IMG/VR virus record: IMGVR_UViG_2874945390_000001
Span: 1-13,756 of that record
Direction: 5' to 3' (one strand)
Length of the DNA stretch: 13,756 bases
Origin: a virus
Taxonomy: Duplodnaviria > Heunggongvirae > Uroviricota > Caudoviricetes
In this document: in pieces, positions 1 to 2,943 of the stretch
Numbering within the stretch: the first letter of the stretch is position 1
Layout of the letters: each line of letters opens with the position of its first letter
The notes under the pieces: generated by a model
The model's input: only the letters and a program-made list of their open reading frames with translations
The model's database searches: none
Told to the model about the DNA's origin: nothing
Program-made: the position numbers and the translations under genes

Positions 1-300
1 TTACCGCCGTAAGTGCTCCGGCTTCCTCCACTGGTAAGTATTTTTCGCGCTCTCCCTCCGTTGTTGAGAACGGCGACGATATGCCAGCAACTCAAGGACT
101 CTTGTTCGTATGTTGCGCATATCCACGCCGTTAAGCTCAATACCGTCACGGCGCATCACCTCAGCCACCACACGCGCGTAATTTTCAGCGGTGACGCTGT
201 CCGGCTGCGTGGCCACCTGTTTGCCTGTTGCCTGACAGATTCCGGTAATACGGCGGATTACTTTCAGTAGTTCGGCGTCGGTCATGGTTATGGTTTCCAT
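1..300 (-). CDS. Hypothetical protein, partial (C-terminus beyond window start); first gene downstream of the cos site, so possibly packaging-related
   Basis: ORF is open to the window edge. The ATG at 298-300 has no obvious RBS, but the internal ATG at 283-285 (MTDAELLK...) follows GGAAAC. Position after cosN/cosB matches where lambda places Nu1, but I see no recognisable Nu1 motif. Confidence 0.45.
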   Translation of the reverse strand: METITMTDAELLKVIRRITGICQATGKQVATQPDSVTAENYARVVAEVMRRDGIELNGVDMRNIRTRVLELLAYRRRSQQRRESAKNTYQWRKPEHLRR

Positions 301-454
301 AGTGATGGGGGAACAATTTCTGTAATCTGCGAAGCTGGCGATCGGTCAGACTCAAATGCCTGGCAACTTCAGTCTGAGTAGCCACTGTTCACCTCGCCCA
401 AAAATCTCCCCTCATGCGTTTTAAACATGCATCTTGCGAACAACTTTATGAAAC

Positions 455-640
455 GCGGCATATATGTCCGGTTTGAGTGTTTAATTTTTGCGCATGTCCG
501 GTTCGCAGAAAGCGCATTTCTATATTTTTCAAATGGTTAACCTTCAGAGAAACCGGACATGGTTTCCGAAAAATTTTCATAAATAGTGAAATTCTGCGCC
601 GCTCCCGCCCCGTGGCAGGCCACCCCACCGGAAGGACCCG
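455..640 (-). other. Lambda-type cos site: cosN-like core (about 595-615) plus cosB-like array of three 10-bp repeats and an IHF-like site
   Basis: Minus strand reads ACGGGGCGGGAGCGGCGCAGAATTTCACTATTTATGAAAATTTTTCGG. It aligns without gaps to the lambda left end ACG|GGGCGGCGACCTCGCGGGTTTTCGCTATTTATGAAAATTTTCCGG, with 17 consecutive identical nt (CTATTTATGAAAATTTT). ATGTCCGGTT occurs at 463-472 and 494-503, and inverted (AACCGGACAT) at 551-560. TTCAAATGGTTAA (521-533) resembles the IHF consensus WATCAANNNNTTR. Confidence 0.7.
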
Positions 641-641
641 C

Positions 642-672
642 AAAAAAAAGCCGGATTTCTCCGGCCTTTTCT
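642..672 (-). terminator. Rho-independent terminator ending the late (capsid) operon; partly bidirectional
   Basis: Hairpin GCCGGA-TTTC-TCCGGC (650-665) flanked by A8 (642-649) and CTTTTCT (666-672). On the minus strand the hairpin is followed by U8, directly after the stop of the 672..1085 ORF. Confidence 0.75.
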
Positions 673-1085
673 CAGATGGTTTTCAGTATGCGATCGATTT
701 CGCCGTCATCACCCTGATATCTGCCATCGTATGCCATGCCAGGGCTTACGGCCTGCGGGCTGTGCATGTCCATAAAGTTTTCAAAGGCTGCGGTAAGCTC
801 CGGCGCAACCTTCGGGCGTTCCTGCTCTATGGTCATGTTCAGGATTTCCCGGGCATTATCGACGCTAATACATGGCACGTTTGCCATTGCACGTAACAGC
901 GGCTGATAGTCGTCAGATTCATGAAGCGCCATAATCGCATCAGTGCGCGGCTTGTCCTGCTCTTCCAGTTTGTTAAGTTGATATATAGCCTCGTAGGTTG
1001 ATAAACCTCTGTCCGCCATTGCCCGCGCTTCGGCTTTAAATTTACTCGCCAGCGGTAGCGCCATGATAGCTTCATTGATTGCCAT
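672..1085 (-). CDS. Hypothetical protein (137 aa), last gene of the late operon
   Basis: Intact ORF with a GGGGGA RBS-like stretch upstream of the ATG and a terminator immediately after the stop. No family recognised. Confidence 0.55.
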   Translation of the reverse strand: MAINEAIMALPLASKFKAEARAMADRGLSTYEAIYQLNKLEEQDKPRTDAIMALHESDDYQPLLRAMANVPCISVDNAREILNMTIEQERPKVAPELTAAFENFMDMHSPQAVSPGMAYDGRYQGDDGEIDRILKTI

Positions 1086-1097
1086 CGTTCCCCCTGC

Positions 1098-1445
1098 TTA
1101 TCGCACCAGTGGCTGAACGGATACGCCAGAACCCGCAAAAGCGGCGCATTTTTTCGCGTCGGTGTCGACGCTCTCGGGCCAGTTAACGGCGGCGATATTA
1201 AATATCCCCGTCTTGTAACACTGTGCTGATTTCTGCTTTGACGTGTCCACGGGGTACGCCGTCAGATAAACAGCCTTGCCAGATTCCTGACCATCCCACG
1301 CCTTAAACTCGCCATTGTCCGCCAGCATCAGCGGGGTAAATTCCTGAATAACGCCAGCATCAGCGGAAAAATGTACCAGCGTCGTGGCAACCTGCTGTGT
1401 GCCTGCATATAACTCAACATATGGAGTGCCCATAGAATCTCCCAT
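1098..1445 (-). CDS. Head decoration protein, lambda gpD-like
   Basis: 115 aa. Motifs TPLMLAD...KAWDG...YKTGIF...WPE...AKK.AAFAGSGVSV parallel lambda gpD (TPLMLDT...VAWDG...YKSGTF...WPE...KKRTAFAGTAISIV). The ATG overlaps the capsid gene stop (TAATG). Confidence 0.85.
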   Translation of the reverse strand: MGDSMGTPYVELYAGTQQVATTLVHFSADAGVIQEFTPLMLADNGEFKAWDGQESGKAVYLTAYPVDTSKQKSAQCYKTGIFNIAAVNWPESVDTDAKKCAAFAGSGVSVQPLVR

Positions 1446-2500
1446 TAACCAATTTTCACAGTAACAAATTTGCGGATATCTGCCGGAACCGGCTGCGGTG
1501 CGCTGTGCGTCTGCACGTACTCAATCGCCGGATCGCCGCTCTCAATCCAGTTTTTCGGGTAGTACATGTTTTGCGTTGCGCCCGTTCTTACCGCTTCCGG
1601 ATCCATAATCGCGCCATAGGCCACCAGACCTTTATTGCTGGTGTTGCCCAGGACAAGCAAATCAGGCTCAAGGAAATATTTTTCGGTGCCGTCGCTGTCG
1701 GTGTATTTGCCGGAATAGACGATAAGGGCCAGATCACCCAGATAGCCTTTAAAGCTCACCACTTCGCCCAGGTTTTTACACGCCAGCTCTGCGGCGGATT
1801 CTGAACCACGGGAAAGATCGTACAGCTCGCGGAATTTTTTAAAGCTACGTAAGGTGCGCCATACGTCAGCGCCCATAATCATGACGTTGGCGGGGCAGCT
1901 GGCCTGTTCGGCGTATAGCTCGATGTCATCTGTCGGATCATGCGTCTCTTTATTCTGCTCAGACCATTTTTTTCCTGGCCCCTGATGGACAATGCAGTTT
2001 GCCGGCATATTCCAGTCGATTTCATAGCGTTCTATGCCTTCGCCTTCAATGATGTTTTTTCCGGTCATGACCGCATTCACTGCCAGCCATTCCACACGCG
2101 CTTTAATGGCGTTTATCTGGCGGCGCATGTTGCCAGTAATGAGGCGCATACGTCGCCAGGTGGGGTCGTTAAGCAGTGCCGGATCTTCTCCAGCCATGCG
2201 CATGATGGCTTTTGATGGATCGATTTCGTGTTTGGGTTTCATGTAGCCAGGGCGGATAGTGCTTGTTTCGTACCCTTTATCACGCTGAACCTGGCTACCC
2301 ACCACAGGCGAACAAAACGCCGACATGGTGACTTCTTCAATGTCCAGGGTATCCAGCATGACATCTTGTGTGTTGAAGGTTGCTACTTTCGGGAAAAACA
2401 GCGTGGTAAACAGCGGACTGAATTTAAATTCCGGGATATCCCCGCGATTCAGGTACGCGAAAAGCTGGTTAGTGTTAAGTGCCGTTGCTTTGTCTGCCAT
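1445..2500 (-). CDS. Major capsid protein, lambda gpE family (HK97 fold)
   Basis: 351 aa with collinear matches to lambda gpE: EFKFSPLF, PGYMKPKHE, DPTDDIE, RSFK, SRGS, SFKG, VYSG, VLGNT, YPKNW..GDPA. Its start overlaps the stop of the upstream 68-aa ORF (TAATG), with GGGGGTG upstream. Confidence 0.9.
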   Translation of the reverse strand: MADKATALNTNQLFAYLNRGDIPEFKFSPLFTTLFFPKVATFNTQDVMLDTLDIEEVTMSAFCSPVVGSQVQRDKGYETSTIRPGYMKPKHEIDPSKAIMRMAGEDPALLNDPTWRRMRLITGNMRRQINAIKARVEWLAVNAVMTGKNIIEGEGIERYEIDWNMPANCIVHQGPGKKWSEQNKETHDPTDDIELYAEQASCPANVMIMGADVWRTLRSFKKFRELYDLSRGSESAAELACKNLGEVVSFKGYLGDLALIVYSGKYTDSDGTEKYFLEPDLLVLGNTSNKGLVAYGAIMDPEAVRTGATQNMYYPKNWIESGDPAIEYVQTHSAPQPVPADIRKFVTVKIG

Positions 2501-2706
2501 TATTCACCCCCATGAGTCTGATTCATGCCAAGCGCCGCACGTAAATAGGCGCGTACCTGCCAGCCTGTTGACGGCTCAACCATCGCCAGCGGATCAAGTC
2601 CTGCCGCAATGCCCGCTTTTACGTTCTGCTGGTGGCGTTCCTTGAGCGCCTCCACGATATCGGGGCTTATGTAAACTGTCACCCCGCCTTTTTTCTCTTC
2701 TGTCAT
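2500..2706 (-). CDS. Hypothetical small protein (68 aa), first gene of the late operon, translationally coupled to the capsid gene
   Basis: ATG at 2704-2706 is preceded by GAGGA at about 9 nt. Stop overlaps the capsid ATG. No family recognised. Confidence 0.55.
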   Translation of the reverse strand: MTEEKKGGVTVYISPDIVEALKERHQQNVKAGIAAGLDPLAMVEPSTGWQVRAYLRAALGMNQTHGGE

Positions 2707-2733
2707 AGTCAGAAATTCCTCTTCGACTTAAAA

Positions 2734-2765
2734 AATTATAACTGGATGTACATCCAGTTATAATT
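2734..2765. promoter_or_regulatory. 32-bp perfect palindrome (operator) overlapping the late-operon promoter; CTG-N10-CAG core resembles an SOS/LexA-type box
   Basis: AATTATAACTGGATGTACATCCAGTTATAATT is exactly self-complementary. The core aCTGGatgtacatCCAGt has LexA-like CTG/CAG spacing, but CTGG in both half-sites deviates from CTGT. It overlaps the -10 hexamer and the predicted start site. Confidence 0.55.
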
Positions 2766-2790
2766 ATAATCATAGTTGCATTTTGTGCAA
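2763..2790 (-). promoter_or_regulatory. Sigma70-type promoter of the late (capsid) operon
   Basis: Minus strand reads TTGCAC (2785-2790), 16-nt spacer, TATAAT (2763-2768), about 55 nt upstream of the 68-aa ORF ATG. Confidence 0.5.
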
Positions 2791-2864
2791 TAGAATTGAG
2801 TTGCGTTGCAAATTATGAAATGATTTACGGCAACAGTAGTCACCATGCTGTTAACCTCGTAAGC

Positions 2865-2907
2865 AAAAGCCCGATAAGCTTCCTCCTGTACTTATCGGGC
2901 TTTTTTT
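2865..2907 (+). terminator. Rho-independent terminator on the plus strand with no convincing upstream CDS
   Basis: Stem GCCCGATAAG (2869-2878), 12-nt loop, stem CTTATCGGGC (2891-2900), then T7 (2901-2907). Preceded by AAAA. Confidence 0.6.
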
Positions 2908-2913
2908 GGGTAC

Positions 2914-2935
2914 AAAAAGCCGGATTTTCTCCGGC
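2914..2935 (-). terminator. Rho-independent terminator for the SSB gene
   Basis: A5 (2914-2918) then hairpin GCCGGA-TTTTC-TCCGGC (2919-2935); on the minus strand the hairpin is followed by U5, just after the SSB stop (2944). Same stem as the terminator at 650-665. Confidence 0.65.
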
Positions 2936-2943
2936 CTGTGCGT

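What the first reader, a model, noticed from the sequence alone, without database searches (positions are those of the whole stretch)
2734..2790. 32-bp perfect palindrome overlapping the late promoter: candidate repressor or SOS operator
AATTATAACTGGATGTACATCCAGTTATAATT (2734-2765) is exactly palindromic and overlaps the -10 TATAAT and the predicted start site of the capsid operon, a classic repressor-operator position. Its core has CTG-N10-CAG spacing like a LexA box, but both half-sites read CTGG instead of CTGT, so the binding protein is uncertain. Late-gene control by an operator over the core promoter would differ from the activator-driven late promoters of P2/P4.
Basis: partly seen in the sequence, partly recalled or inferred. 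Interest (0 to 1): 0.6.

Follow-up and report, generated by a model that had tools for sequence, protein, structure and literature searches.

The report
SOS (LexA) operator on satellite capsid promoter
The perfect palindrome is real and is most likely a binding site for LexA, the host DNA-damage repressor, placed over the start of a four-gene capsid operon in an E. coli phage satellite (PICI), so these genes would switch on when DNA damage wakes the helper prophage.

Summary
**Observation:** confirmed. Positions 2734-2765 are a perfect 16+16 bp palindrome. The longest palindrome arm in 200 shuffles was 10.

**Context:** the window is a decayed EcCICFT073-type phage-inducible chromosomal island, not a P2/P4 element. 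Its genes lie on the minus strand.

**Position:** the palindrome begins inside the -10 of a predicted promoter, TTGCAC-16-TATAAT. It covers the expected start site of a terminator-bounded operon: a 68-aa gene, a lambda E-like capsid gene, a D-like decoration gene and a 137-aa gene.

**LexA test:** the inner 20 bp, AACTGGATGTACATCCAGTT, score 21.7 bits on a matrix built from 18 published E. coli LexA boxes. That is mid-range and above ruvA and cho, which also read CTGG/CCAG.

**Comparison:** five diverged lineages keep a high-scoring box in this promoter, four of them at the identical offset from the -10. One has a canonical CTGT box. Substitutions between lineages avoid the positions LexA needs.

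**Hairpin rival:** the RNA hairpin is not conserved and shows no covariation.

**Verdict:** best reading is a LexA operator (about 0.78), from sequence analysis only. It parallels the LexA-controlled SaPI operon I. I found no description of it for Gram-negative PICIs in the library searched. It is a new member of a known kind, of moderate interest.

The parts
2734..2765 (.). 32-bp perfect palindrome AATTATAACTGGATGTACATCCAGTTATAATT
   Evidence: Arm of 16 against at most 10 in 200 shuffles.
2740..2759 (.). Predicted LexA (SOS) box AACTGGATGTACATCCAGTT, the inner 20 bp of the palindrome
   Evidence: Scores 21.7 bits, heterology index about 6.3, on a matrix of 18 published boxes. P = 3e-8 per position, 4e-4 expected per window. 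Retained in diverged lineages.
2763..2768 (-). Predicted -10 hexamer TATAAT of the capsid-operon promoter
   Evidence: Read from the sequence. The first five bases are invariant and the sixth is at least 90% conserved in 18 distinct box-bearing relatives. The LexA box starts 3 nt downstream.
2785..2790 (-). Predicted -35 hexamer TTGCAC, 16-nt spacer to the -10
   Evidence: Read from the sequence. It matches TTGACA at 3 of 6 positions, so the consensus scanner did not call it.
2775..2791 (-). Proximal inverted repeat ATTGCAC-AAAA-TGCAAC (TTGCA-N5-TGCAA) over the -35; binding factor unknown
   Evidence: (D1). Present in every lineage, including those without a LexA box.
2805..2821 (-). Distal copy of the same repeat (ATTTCATAATTTGCAAC), 30 nt upstream of the proximal one
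2716..2722 (-). Shine-Dalgarno AGAGGAA of the first gene
   Evidence: Conserved in all relatives.
2500..2706 (-). First gene of the operon, 68 aa, function unknown (phrog_3255)
   Evidence: The AlphaFold2 model has pLDDT 76 and no PDB fold match.
1445..2500 (-). Major capsid protein, lambda gpE family (homologue of CFT073 c1499)
   Evidence: Pfam Phage_cap_E, E = 3e-48. 90% identical to the CFT073 protein.
1098..1445 (-). Head decoration protein, lambda gpD family (homologue of c1500)
   Evidence: Pfam HDPD, E = 4e-18.
672..1085 (-). 137-aa gene, the last of the operon
   Evidence: phrog_1999, plus a weak match to the C-terminus of head maturation protease (phrog_53).
642..670 (-). Terminator-like hairpin with a T-run that closes the operon
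   Evidence: Read from the sequence.
2863..2937 (.). Two terminator-like hairpins (2865-2904 and 2914-2937) between ssb and the capsid promoter. They isolate the operon from upstream transcription.
   Evidence: (I4, I15). The same pair is present in CFT073.

Best explanation
The inner 20 bp of the palindrome (2740-2759) are an operator for the host LexA repressor.

**Position.** The box sits 3 nt downstream of the -10 of a sigma-70 promoter, TTGCAC-16-TATAAT on the minus strand. It therefore covers about -3 to +17 of a self-contained four-gene operon in an EcCICFT073-type PICI: the 68-aa gene, a gpE-like capsid gene, a gpD-like decoration gene and the 137-aa gene.

**Mechanism.**
- In undamaged cells a LexA dimer on this site blocks RNA polymerase.
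- DNA damage makes RecA* cleave LexA, and the operon is derepressed.
- The same signal induces the lambdoid helper prophages that the satellite exploits.

**What is shown and what is inferred.**
- Shown here: the palindrome, its motif score, its position relative to conserved promoter elements, and its retention across lineages.
- Inferred: actual LexA binding, the transcript start, and SOS inducibility.
- The outer 6 bp of each arm lie beyond the LexA consensus. They are lineage-specific and remain unexplained.
For: 1. **Motif score.** On a matrix built from 18 published E. coli LexA boxes (PMC3009722 Table 4) the site scores 21.7 bits, heterology index about 6.3. That is above lexA, ruvA, cho, uvrD, dinG, ftsK, dinB and polB. 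Chance expectation is 4e-4 per window and 0.15 per 5 Mb.
2. **CTGG/CCAG precedent.** ruvA and cho carry CTGG/CCAG in both half-sites, and both are listed as genes with known SOS boxes.
3. **Position.** The box starts exactly 3 nt after an almost invariant TATAAT in all E. coli-type relatives and in three of the four other box-bearing lineages. In Pluralibacter it starts 15 nt after.
4. **Retention across lineages** (first-gene product 56-68% identical to the window's):
   - Salmonella: GACTGGATAAATATCCAGAT, 18.1 bits.
   - Pluralibacter: AACTGGATGTTTGTCCAGTT, 17.7 bits, displaced 12 nt.
   - L065: GACTGGATGCACATACAGTT, 18.0 bits.
   - L068/L069: C/TACTGTATATAAATTCAGTT, 19.7 and 22.0 bits, a canonical CTGT box.
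5. **Substitution pattern.** The 3-6 differences between lineages keep the LexA score far better than the same number of random substitutions. The fraction of random trials reaching the observed score is 0.0003-0.02 for L069, L068 and Salmonella, and 0.02-0.08 for the other two.
6. **CCAG to ACAG changes.** These move towards the LexA consensus and break the hairpin. They occur in three separate backgrounds.
7. **Box-less clades.** Those lacking the box also have a weaker -10, TAAAAT. This is as expected if the repressor site and a strong promoter go together.
8. **Isolation.** The operon is bounded by terminators on both sides, so its own promoter should decide its expression.
9. **Precedent.** SaPI operon I is LexA-controlled (Ubeda 2007, cited in PMC6092414).
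Against: - There are no binding, expression or start-site data. The promoter was placed by eye and by conservation, and the consensus scanner did not call it because the -35 matches only 3 of 6.
- Every E. coli-type copy has G at box position 6 (CTGG). The consensus T appears only in the distant L068/L069 lineage.
- The dyad symmetry in this window extends 6 bp per arm beyond the LexA 20-mer, which LexA does not explain.
- At least two clades, including the Edwardsiella element, lack the box. It is therefore not essential to the module.
- Published work on EcCICFT073 reports that alpA induction depends on a helper phage and not on SOS. Deleting c1499 or c1500 changed neither transfer nor interference. 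The physiological pay-off of SOS control is therefore unknown.
Confidence: 0.78

Rival explanations
1. The palindrome acts as RNA. On the minus strand it folds into a long hairpin followed by a U-run. This would be an intrinsic terminator or attenuator that stops read-through from upstream or needs antitermination, or else a 5' hairpin that stabilises the mRNA.
For: - The terminator scan flags it: 14 pairs, a loop of 4, then TTTTAAG.
- The fold is strong in the window (-18.9 kcal/mol, z = -4.5) and in the commonest E. coli form (z = -4.9).
- A few outer-arm variants keep pairing: ATTAT/ATAAT, ATCAT/ATGAT, ATCAC/GTGAT.
Against: - Other lineages keep the LexA-type box but not the hairpin: z = -1.4, -0.9, -1.5, +0.6 and -1.4.
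- Covariation is no better than in shuffled columns: score 0.096 against 0.091, reached by 184 of 500 shuffles; paired cells 91.3% against 90.7%, reached by 153 of 500.
- The commonest E. coli variants carry G.A and T.T mismatches in the stem.
- The stem is AT-rich.
- The T-run persists in lineages that have no hairpin at all.
- A transcript starting about 7 nt after the -10 would lack the outer left arm.
- Two good terminators already lie upstream.
- No Rfam family reaches its threshold.
Confidence: 0.07
2. The palindrome is the operator of a dedicated regulator other than LexA. Candidates are one encoded by the island (the 68-aa first gene product, AlpA, PerC) or by the helper phage.
For: - The symmetry extends beyond the LexA 20-mer.
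- CTGGAT/ATCCAG is invariant in all E. coli-type copies.
- The first gene of the operon is small and uncharacterised.
Against: - There is no second copy of the core in the island, and the promoter region has no match in 50,697 phage records.
- The box is present in islands with different replication modules (D5-type primase, DUF927, AAA_25), and with or without PerC. This points to a host factor.
- L068/L069 replace CTGGAT...ATCCAG with CTGTAT...ATTCAG, which only a LexA-type specificity accommodates.
- The 68-aa gene is also present in lineages without the palindrome. Its model has no DNA-binding fold match.
Confidence: 0.08
3. The palindrome has no function of its own. It would be a by-product of AT-rich promoter sequence or of local duplication and inversion.
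For: - The exact 32-bp perfection is confined to this lineage (L003, and L004 apart from its -10); most relatives have an asymmetric centre.
- One relative has a 1-nt insertion that destroys the spacing (L006).
Against: - The chance expectation is 3e-6.
- CTG-N10-CAG is retained in nearly all of about 50 distinct promoter sequences and in five diverged lineages, with substitutions biased to tolerated positions.
Confidence: 0.03

Closest known systems
E. coli SOS boxes of ruvAB (CGCTGGATATCTATCCAGCA) and cho/ydjQ (CACTGGATAGATAACCAGCA)
   Same: Both share the CTGGAT-N4..-ATCCAG/CCAG architecture, with G rather than T at position 6 and C at position 15. Their matrix scores are similar (20.3 and 20.7 bits against 21.7). 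Sequences are and scores. Both are listed as genes with known SOS boxes.
   Different: Those are chromosomal DNA-repair genes. This site is on a mobile satellite, in front of virion-protein homologues. It sits inside a longer perfect palindrome, and binding has not been tested.
LexA control of SaPI operon I in Staphylococcus aureus (Ubeda et al. 2007, cited in PMC6092414)
   Same: Both are phage satellites of the PICI kind. In each, the packaging or capsid module has its own promoter placed under the host SOS repressor, separately from the master switch of the island. The comparison is of logic only (for the citation; the details are from my own knowledge).
   Different: - The hosts differ and so does the LexA motif: the Gram-positive box is CGAAC-N4-GTTCG (my knowledge).
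- The genes are unrelated: terS, cpm and pti against gpE/gpD-like genes.
- The SaPI case is experimentally shown and this one is not.
- This is an analogy, probably convergent, not homology.
EcCICFT073, the prototype Gram-negative PICI (Fillol-Salom et al. 2018, PMC6092414; 2019, PMC6739421)
   Same: The gene order is the same and the proteins are 85-99% identical: ssb, the 68-aa gene, c1499 capsid, c1500 decoration, c1501, primase. CFT073 carries the same promoter with the box AACTGGATGAACATCCAGTT.
   Different: - The papers describe AlpA-dependent, helper-dependent, SOS-independent induction. They mention LexA only when citing the SaPI work.
- The window's copy has no PerC gene, carries IS66 and IS3 insertions, has a different and frameshifted integrase, and has no intact rpp.
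   Same: Both are satellite or helper promoters for virion genes.
   Different: There is no TGT-N12-ACA activator site. The -10 is a consensus hexamer with a recognisable TTG -35. The element is not P4-like in gene content; PMC6092414 makes the same point.

Membership tests
LexA operator (SOS box) of the E. coli / gammaproteobacterial type | 20-bp dyad with a CTG-N10-CAG core and an AT-rich centre | tested here: met
   AACTGGATGTACATCCAGTT at 2740-2759.
LexA operator (SOS box) of the E. coli / gammaproteobacterial type | Matrix score or heterology index within the range of validated boxes | tested here: met
   21.7 bits, heterology index about 6.3. It ranks about 9th when placed among the 18 reference boxes. 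P = 3e-8 per position. The matrix comes from PMC3009722 Table 4, not the original Lewis 1994 matrix.
LexA operator (SOS box) of the E. coli / gammaproteobacterial type | Overlaps or abuts the core promoter of the regulated unit | tested here: met
   It starts 3 nt after a conserved TATAAT and covers the expected start site. The promoter itself is predicted, not mapped.
LexA operator (SOS box) of the E. coli / gammaproteobacterial type | Motif retained in orthologous promoters while the surrounding sequence diverges | tested here: met
   Five diverged lineages score 17.7-22.0 bits. Substitutions are biased to tolerated positions, with random-trial fractions of 0.0003-0.08. Two clades lack the box.
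LexA operator (SOS box) of the E. coli / gammaproteobacterial type | Direct binding by LexA (EMSA, footprint, ChIP) | not testable with these tools
   No such data were found in the library.
LexA operator (SOS box) of the E. coli / gammaproteobacterial type | RecA/LexA-dependent induction of the downstream genes by DNA damage | not testable with these tools
   No expression data were available.
Intrinsic (Rho-independent) terminator or attenuator | Stable G+C-rich stem-loop directly followed by a U-run | tested here: inconclusive
   The hairpin and T-run are present in the window. However, the stem is AT-rich (3 G-C pairs counted by the scan), and it sits between the -10 and the ribosome-binding site.
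Intrinsic (Rho-independent) terminator or attenuator | Structure conserved, with compensatory changes, among relatives | tested here: not met
   Fold z-scores are -1.5 to +0.6 in the other box-bearing lineages. Covariation is no better than in shuffles.
PICI (phage-inducible chromosomal island), EcCICFT073 type (context of the site) | int, alpA, primase/replication module, then packaging or interference module, all in one direction; about 10-15 kb; a cos site of the helper type | tested here: met
   Gene order and identity match CFT073. A lambda-like cos sequence lies at 566-611. The copy is decayed by two IS insertions and a frameshifted int.
P2/P4 late promoter | Ogr/Delta site TGT-N12-ACA near -55 and a poor -35 | tested here: not met
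   No TGT-N12-ACA in the 200 nt upstream of the operon.

The most novel reading that the evidence does not exclude
The capsid-operon promoter may be a two-input switch that nobody has described.

- **Input 1:** a LexA operator over the start site reports host DNA damage.
- **Input 2:** a pair of strictly conserved TTGCA-N5-TGCAA inverted repeats lies over -35 and about -63. They are present even in clades that have lost the LexA box, and they would be read by an unidentified island- or helper-encoded factor.

Together with a second LexA-like box next to int (12489-12508), this would mean that Gram-negative PICIs, currently described as SOS-independent, are wired directly into the SOS regulon. 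The extended palindrome might in addition work as an RNA hairpin.
Probability: 0.2. Interest if true: 0.55.

Novelty: new member of a known kind. Interest (0 to 1): 0.4.

Why it matters
The promoter region (window 2640-2870) matches 620 of 5,426 complete E. coli genomes, 558 of them over at least 80% of its length. These include CFT073 and O157:H7.

**Current picture.** The published account of how these islands are switched on rests on AlpA and a helper-phage signal, and states that SOS is not involved. No function or regulation has been assigned to the capsid and decoration homologues.

**What a LexA operator would add.**
- A direct host DNA-damage input into the satellite.
- A concrete handle on when c1498-c1501 are made.
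- A regulatory parallel with the LexA-controlled SaPI operon I that looks convergent.

**How it could be tested.** One EMSA and one reporter fusion would settle it. If it holds, antibiotics that trigger SOS would induce these satellite genes even without a helper phage.

Tried and rejected
- **Species-representative genomes.** A scan with the 68-aa protein found nothing. A repeat with an alignment found only a spurious hit. The cross-genus comparison therefore rests on IMG/VR, Logan, NCBI, ENA and metagenome contigs.
- **The 68-aa protein as a ribbon-helix-helix autoregulator.** It has no Pfam hit. The AlphaFold2 model (pLDDT 76) has a beta-hairpin and two helices, but no PDB match at E <= 0.001. 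The protein also occurs in lineages without the palindrome. Dropped.
- **A phage operator shared with helpers.** The promoter region has no meaningful match among 50,697 phage records.
- **A known RNA family.** Nothing came near a gathering score.
- **RNA covariation.** Not above the controls.
- **A P2/P4 activator site.** Absent.
- **A cos/pac site.** Rejected, because the lambda-like cos sequence is elsewhere, at 566-611.
- **A sigma-54 or Fur reading of the TTGCA repeats and the ATGATTATAATCAT region.** Considered by eye only. The spacing does not fit sigma-54. Not pursued.
- **Literature.** Searches for EcCICFT073, PICI or cf-PICI together with LexA or SOS box found no description of this site. 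The library holds open-access papers only, so absence is not proof.

Full report
**1. The observation**

The sequence AATTATAACTGGATGTACATCCAGTTATAATT is at 2734-2765. It is a perfect inverted repeat of 16+16 bases with no spacer.
- It is the longest perfect palindrome in the window.
- In 200 dinucleotide-preserving shuffles the longest arm was 5-10 bases. The analytic expectation for an arm of 16 is 3e-6 per window.
- The 18-base core has no other copy in the window, even with three mismatches.

**2. What the window is**

The region matches about 1,000 of 5,426 complete E. coli genomes. One of them is CFT073, where the matching island lies between roxA and phoQ.

Gene order and protein identities identify the window as an EcCICFT073-type phage-inducible chromosomal island (PICI), with all island genes on the minus strand. 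Identities to CFT073 are:

| Protein | Identity |
|---|---|
| SSB | 99% |
| 68-aa protein | 93% |
| gpE-like capsid | 90% |
| gpD-like decoration | 92% |
| 137-aa protein | 88% |
| primase | 95% |

This copy is decayed:
- an IS66 element lies between ssb and the primase;
- an IS3-type element splits the primase after codon 49;
- the integrase is in two frames;
- the rpp gene is not intact.

No TGT-N12-ACA site is present.

**3. Anatomy around the palindrome (minus strand, in the order of transcription)**

| Feature | Coordinates |
|---|---|
| ssb ends | 2944 |
| Two terminator-like hairpins | 2937-2914 and 2904-2865 |
| Distal inverted repeat ATTTCATAATTTGCAAC | 2821-2805 |
| Proximal inverted repeat ATTGCACAAAATGCAAC | 2791-2775 |
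| -35 TTGCAC | 2790-2785 |
| Spacer | 16 nt |
| -10 TATAAT | 2768-2763 |
| 20-bp core of the palindrome | 2759-2740 |
| T-run | follows the core |
| Shine-Dalgarno AGAGGAA | 2722-2716 |
| ATG of the 68-aa gene | 2706 |

Downstream come the capsid, decoration and 137-aa genes, then a terminator at 670-642.

The operon is therefore a self-contained unit. The consensus scanner did not report this promoter, because the -35 matches only 3 of 6 positions. The -10 is nevertheless consensus and almost invariant in 18 distinct relatives. The promoter remains a prediction.

**4. Test against LexA**

I built a symmetrised position weight matrix from 18 E. coli LexA boxes printed in PMC3009722 Table 4.
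- The window's site scores 21.7 bits, heterology index about 6.3. This is higher than lexA, ruvA, cho, uvrD, dinG, ftsK, dinB and polB, and close to recA, sulA and dinI.
- The exact score distribution gives P = 3e-8 per position. That means 4e-4 expected per window and 0.15 per 5-Mb genome.
ruvA (CGCTGGATATCTATCCAGCA) and cho (CACTGGATAGATAACCAGCA) carry CTGG/CCAG in both halves. Both are listed among the genes with known SOS boxes in PMC6590174.

**5. Comparative evidence**

*E. coli-type islands.* I collected 56 IMG/VR loci, 28 metagenome loci and contigs for nine divergent homologues of the 68-aa protein.
- In all E. coli-type islands the -10 is followed after 3 nt by a box of 16-22 bits.
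- CTGGAT and the CAG half are invariant. The centre and the two outermost positions vary.
- Exceptions are one copy with a 1-nt insertion (L006) and one indel-ridden, probably low-quality contig (L072).

*More distant lineages.*

| Lineage | Box | Score (bits) | Note |
|---|---|---|---|
| Salmonella | GACTGGATAAATATCCAGAT | 18.1 | same offset |
| Pluralibacter | AACTGGATGTTTGTCCAGTT | 17.7 | shifted 12 nt downstream |
| L065 | GACTGGATGCACATACAGTT | 18.0 | same offset |
| L068 | CACTGTATATAAATTCAGTT | 19.7 | same offset, canonical CTGT |
| L069 | TACTGTATATAAATTCAGTT | 22.0 | same offset, canonical CTGT |

*Substitution test.* Changing the window's box at the same number of random positions almost never preserves such scores. 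The fraction of random trials reaching the observed score is 0.0003-0.002 for L069 and L068, 0.008-0.016 for Salmonella, and 0.02-0.08 for the other two.

*Direction of change.* CCAG-to-ACAG changes move towards the LexA consensus and break the hairpin. They occur in three backgrounds.

*Clades without the box.* Two clades lack it: a 63-66% identity clade and an Edwardsiella element that also encodes portal and protease. Both have TAAAAT instead of TATAAT at the -10. This fits a strong promoter being tolerated only when a repressor site is present. The number of independent cases is small.

**6. The hairpin rival**

On the minus strand the palindrome plus the T-run looks like an intrinsic terminator. 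It folds strongly in the window (z = -4.5) and in the commonest E. coli form (z = -4.9). Against this:
- Other box-bearing lineages do not keep the fold: z = -1.4, -0.9, -1.5, +0.6 and -1.4.
- On 18 distinct sequences the covariation score and the fraction of paired cells are matched by 184 and 153 of 500 column shuffles.
- The T-run is retained in lineages that have no hairpin.
- Transcripts started at the predicted site would lack the outer left arm.
- Two terminators already lie upstream.
- No Rfam family reaches its threshold.

I therefore treat the hairpin as a by-product of the operator's symmetry. A secondary role is not excluded.

**7. Other regulators**

- The core has no second copy in the island.
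- The promoter region has no counterpart in the phage collection.
- The box occurs in islands with three different replication modules, and with or without PerC. This argues for a host factor.
- The 68-aa protein has no Pfam family and no fold match, and it is present where the palindrome is absent.

One thing is unexplained: in this window the symmetry runs 6 bp per arm beyond the LexA 20-mer. In most relatives the palindrome has 14-bp arms around an asymmetric AA centre. The exact 32-bp perfection is therefore a feature of this lineage.

**8. Mechanism and meaning**

The best-supported model is ordinary LexA repression of a strong promoter by occlusion of the start site, relieved by RecA*-stimulated LexA cleavage.

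The same signal induces the lambdoid helpers of these islands. The satellite's capsid-related operon would then come on together with helper induction.

This is the logic reported for SaPI operon I (Ubeda 2007, cited in PMC6092414). The host, the LexA motif and the genes all differ, so it is an analogy and not homology.

Published work on EcCICFT073 describes AlpA-dependent, helper-dependent and SOS-independent induction of alpA. It found no phenotype for deletions of c1499 or c1500. The benefit of SOS control of this operon is therefore unknown.

**9. Novelty**

Five full-text searches combining EcCICFT073, PICI or cf-PICI with LexA or SOS box found no description of this site. In the PICI papers LexA appears only in citations of the SaPI work.

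The library is open-access only. I therefore rate the site as a new member of a known kind, with moderate interest.

**10. Caveats**

- All evidence is computational.
- The matrix comes from 18 boxes found upstream of UV-induced genes, not from the original Lewis matrix, so heterology-index values are comparable but not identical.
- Many of the relatives are closely related, so counts of sequences are not counts of independent events. The argument rests mainly on the five diverged lineages.

Noticed in passing
window 12489-12508 (minus strand reads AGCTGTACAGAAAACCAGTA): A second LexA-like box scoring 17.0 bits, with 0.01-0.02 expected per window. It overlaps the integrase stop codon, and its near end is 29 nt upstream of a TATAAT that precedes an uncharacterised 83-aa ORF (12178-12429) and alpA (11825-12031). 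It is identical in 16 distinct relatives with this AlpA type, but these are all close relatives. CFT073 and strain 2014C-4587 have LexA-like sites in the same intergenic region, each with one critical CTG broken. This fits the published SOS-independence of alpA in CFT073.
   Followed up: partly
window 2775-2791 and 2805-2821: Two copies of an inverted repeat TTGCA-N5-TG(C/A)AA, 30 nt apart. The proximal one overlies the -35 of the capsid promoter. Both are conserved in every lineage examined, including those without the LexA box and the Edwardsiella element. They are probably the site of a second, unidentified regulator.
   Followed up: partly
window 2759-2773 and relatives: The -10 sits inside its own small palindrome, ATGATTATAATCAT in most relatives, so TATAAT reads on both strands. 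The hairpin at 2865-2904 has the better T-run on the plus strand. A short divergent plus-strand transcript (about 2775-2911) is conceivable. The region between the repeats and the terminator is poorly conserved.
   Followed up: no
window 3403 to about 6200, and about 7912-9175: Two insertion sequences. An IS66-family element (TnpA-like, TnpB, and a TnpC split between two frames) lies between ssb and the primase, replacing the small gene found there in CFT073. An IS3-family element (HTH_Tnp_1 plus rve) splits the primase between codons 49 and 50.
   Followed up: partly
window 12507-13756: The integrase is in two overlapping reading frames (12860-13756 and 12507-12956), so it is probably frameshifted. 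It is only about 25% identical to the CFT073 integrase. This island has a different integration module.
   Followed up: no
window 566-611 (minus strand): A lambda-like cos sequence (…GGGGCGGGAGCGGCGC…CACTATTTATGAAAATTTTTCGG…) lies just downstream of the capsid-operon terminator. I recognised it from memory of lambda cos and did not align it to a reference.
   Followed up: no
window 1-385: Where CFT073 has the 144-aa Rpp-like gene there is no tblastn match. Only about 24 codons of a TerS/Nu1-like N-terminus remain (ORF 185-385, phrog_57). They run into the c1504-like gene (1-300), which is in another frame. The packaging-redirection gene seems truncated or replaced.
   Followed up: partly
between 2790 and 2944; compare L001 12562-12810: CFT073 and many other strains carry a PerC-family regulator gene between ssb and the capsid promoter. 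The window, like strain 2014C-4587, lacks it.
   Followed up: no
L057, L066, L067, L070, L126-L131, L063, L064: Clades without the LexA box read …GATTAAAATCATGACTGATTTTTCGTTATG…. This looks like the box-bearing sequence with the right half-site lost, together with a weaker -10. Pluralibacter (L061) has such a remnant followed by a complete box 12 nt further downstream, which suggests loss and regain.
   Followed up: partly
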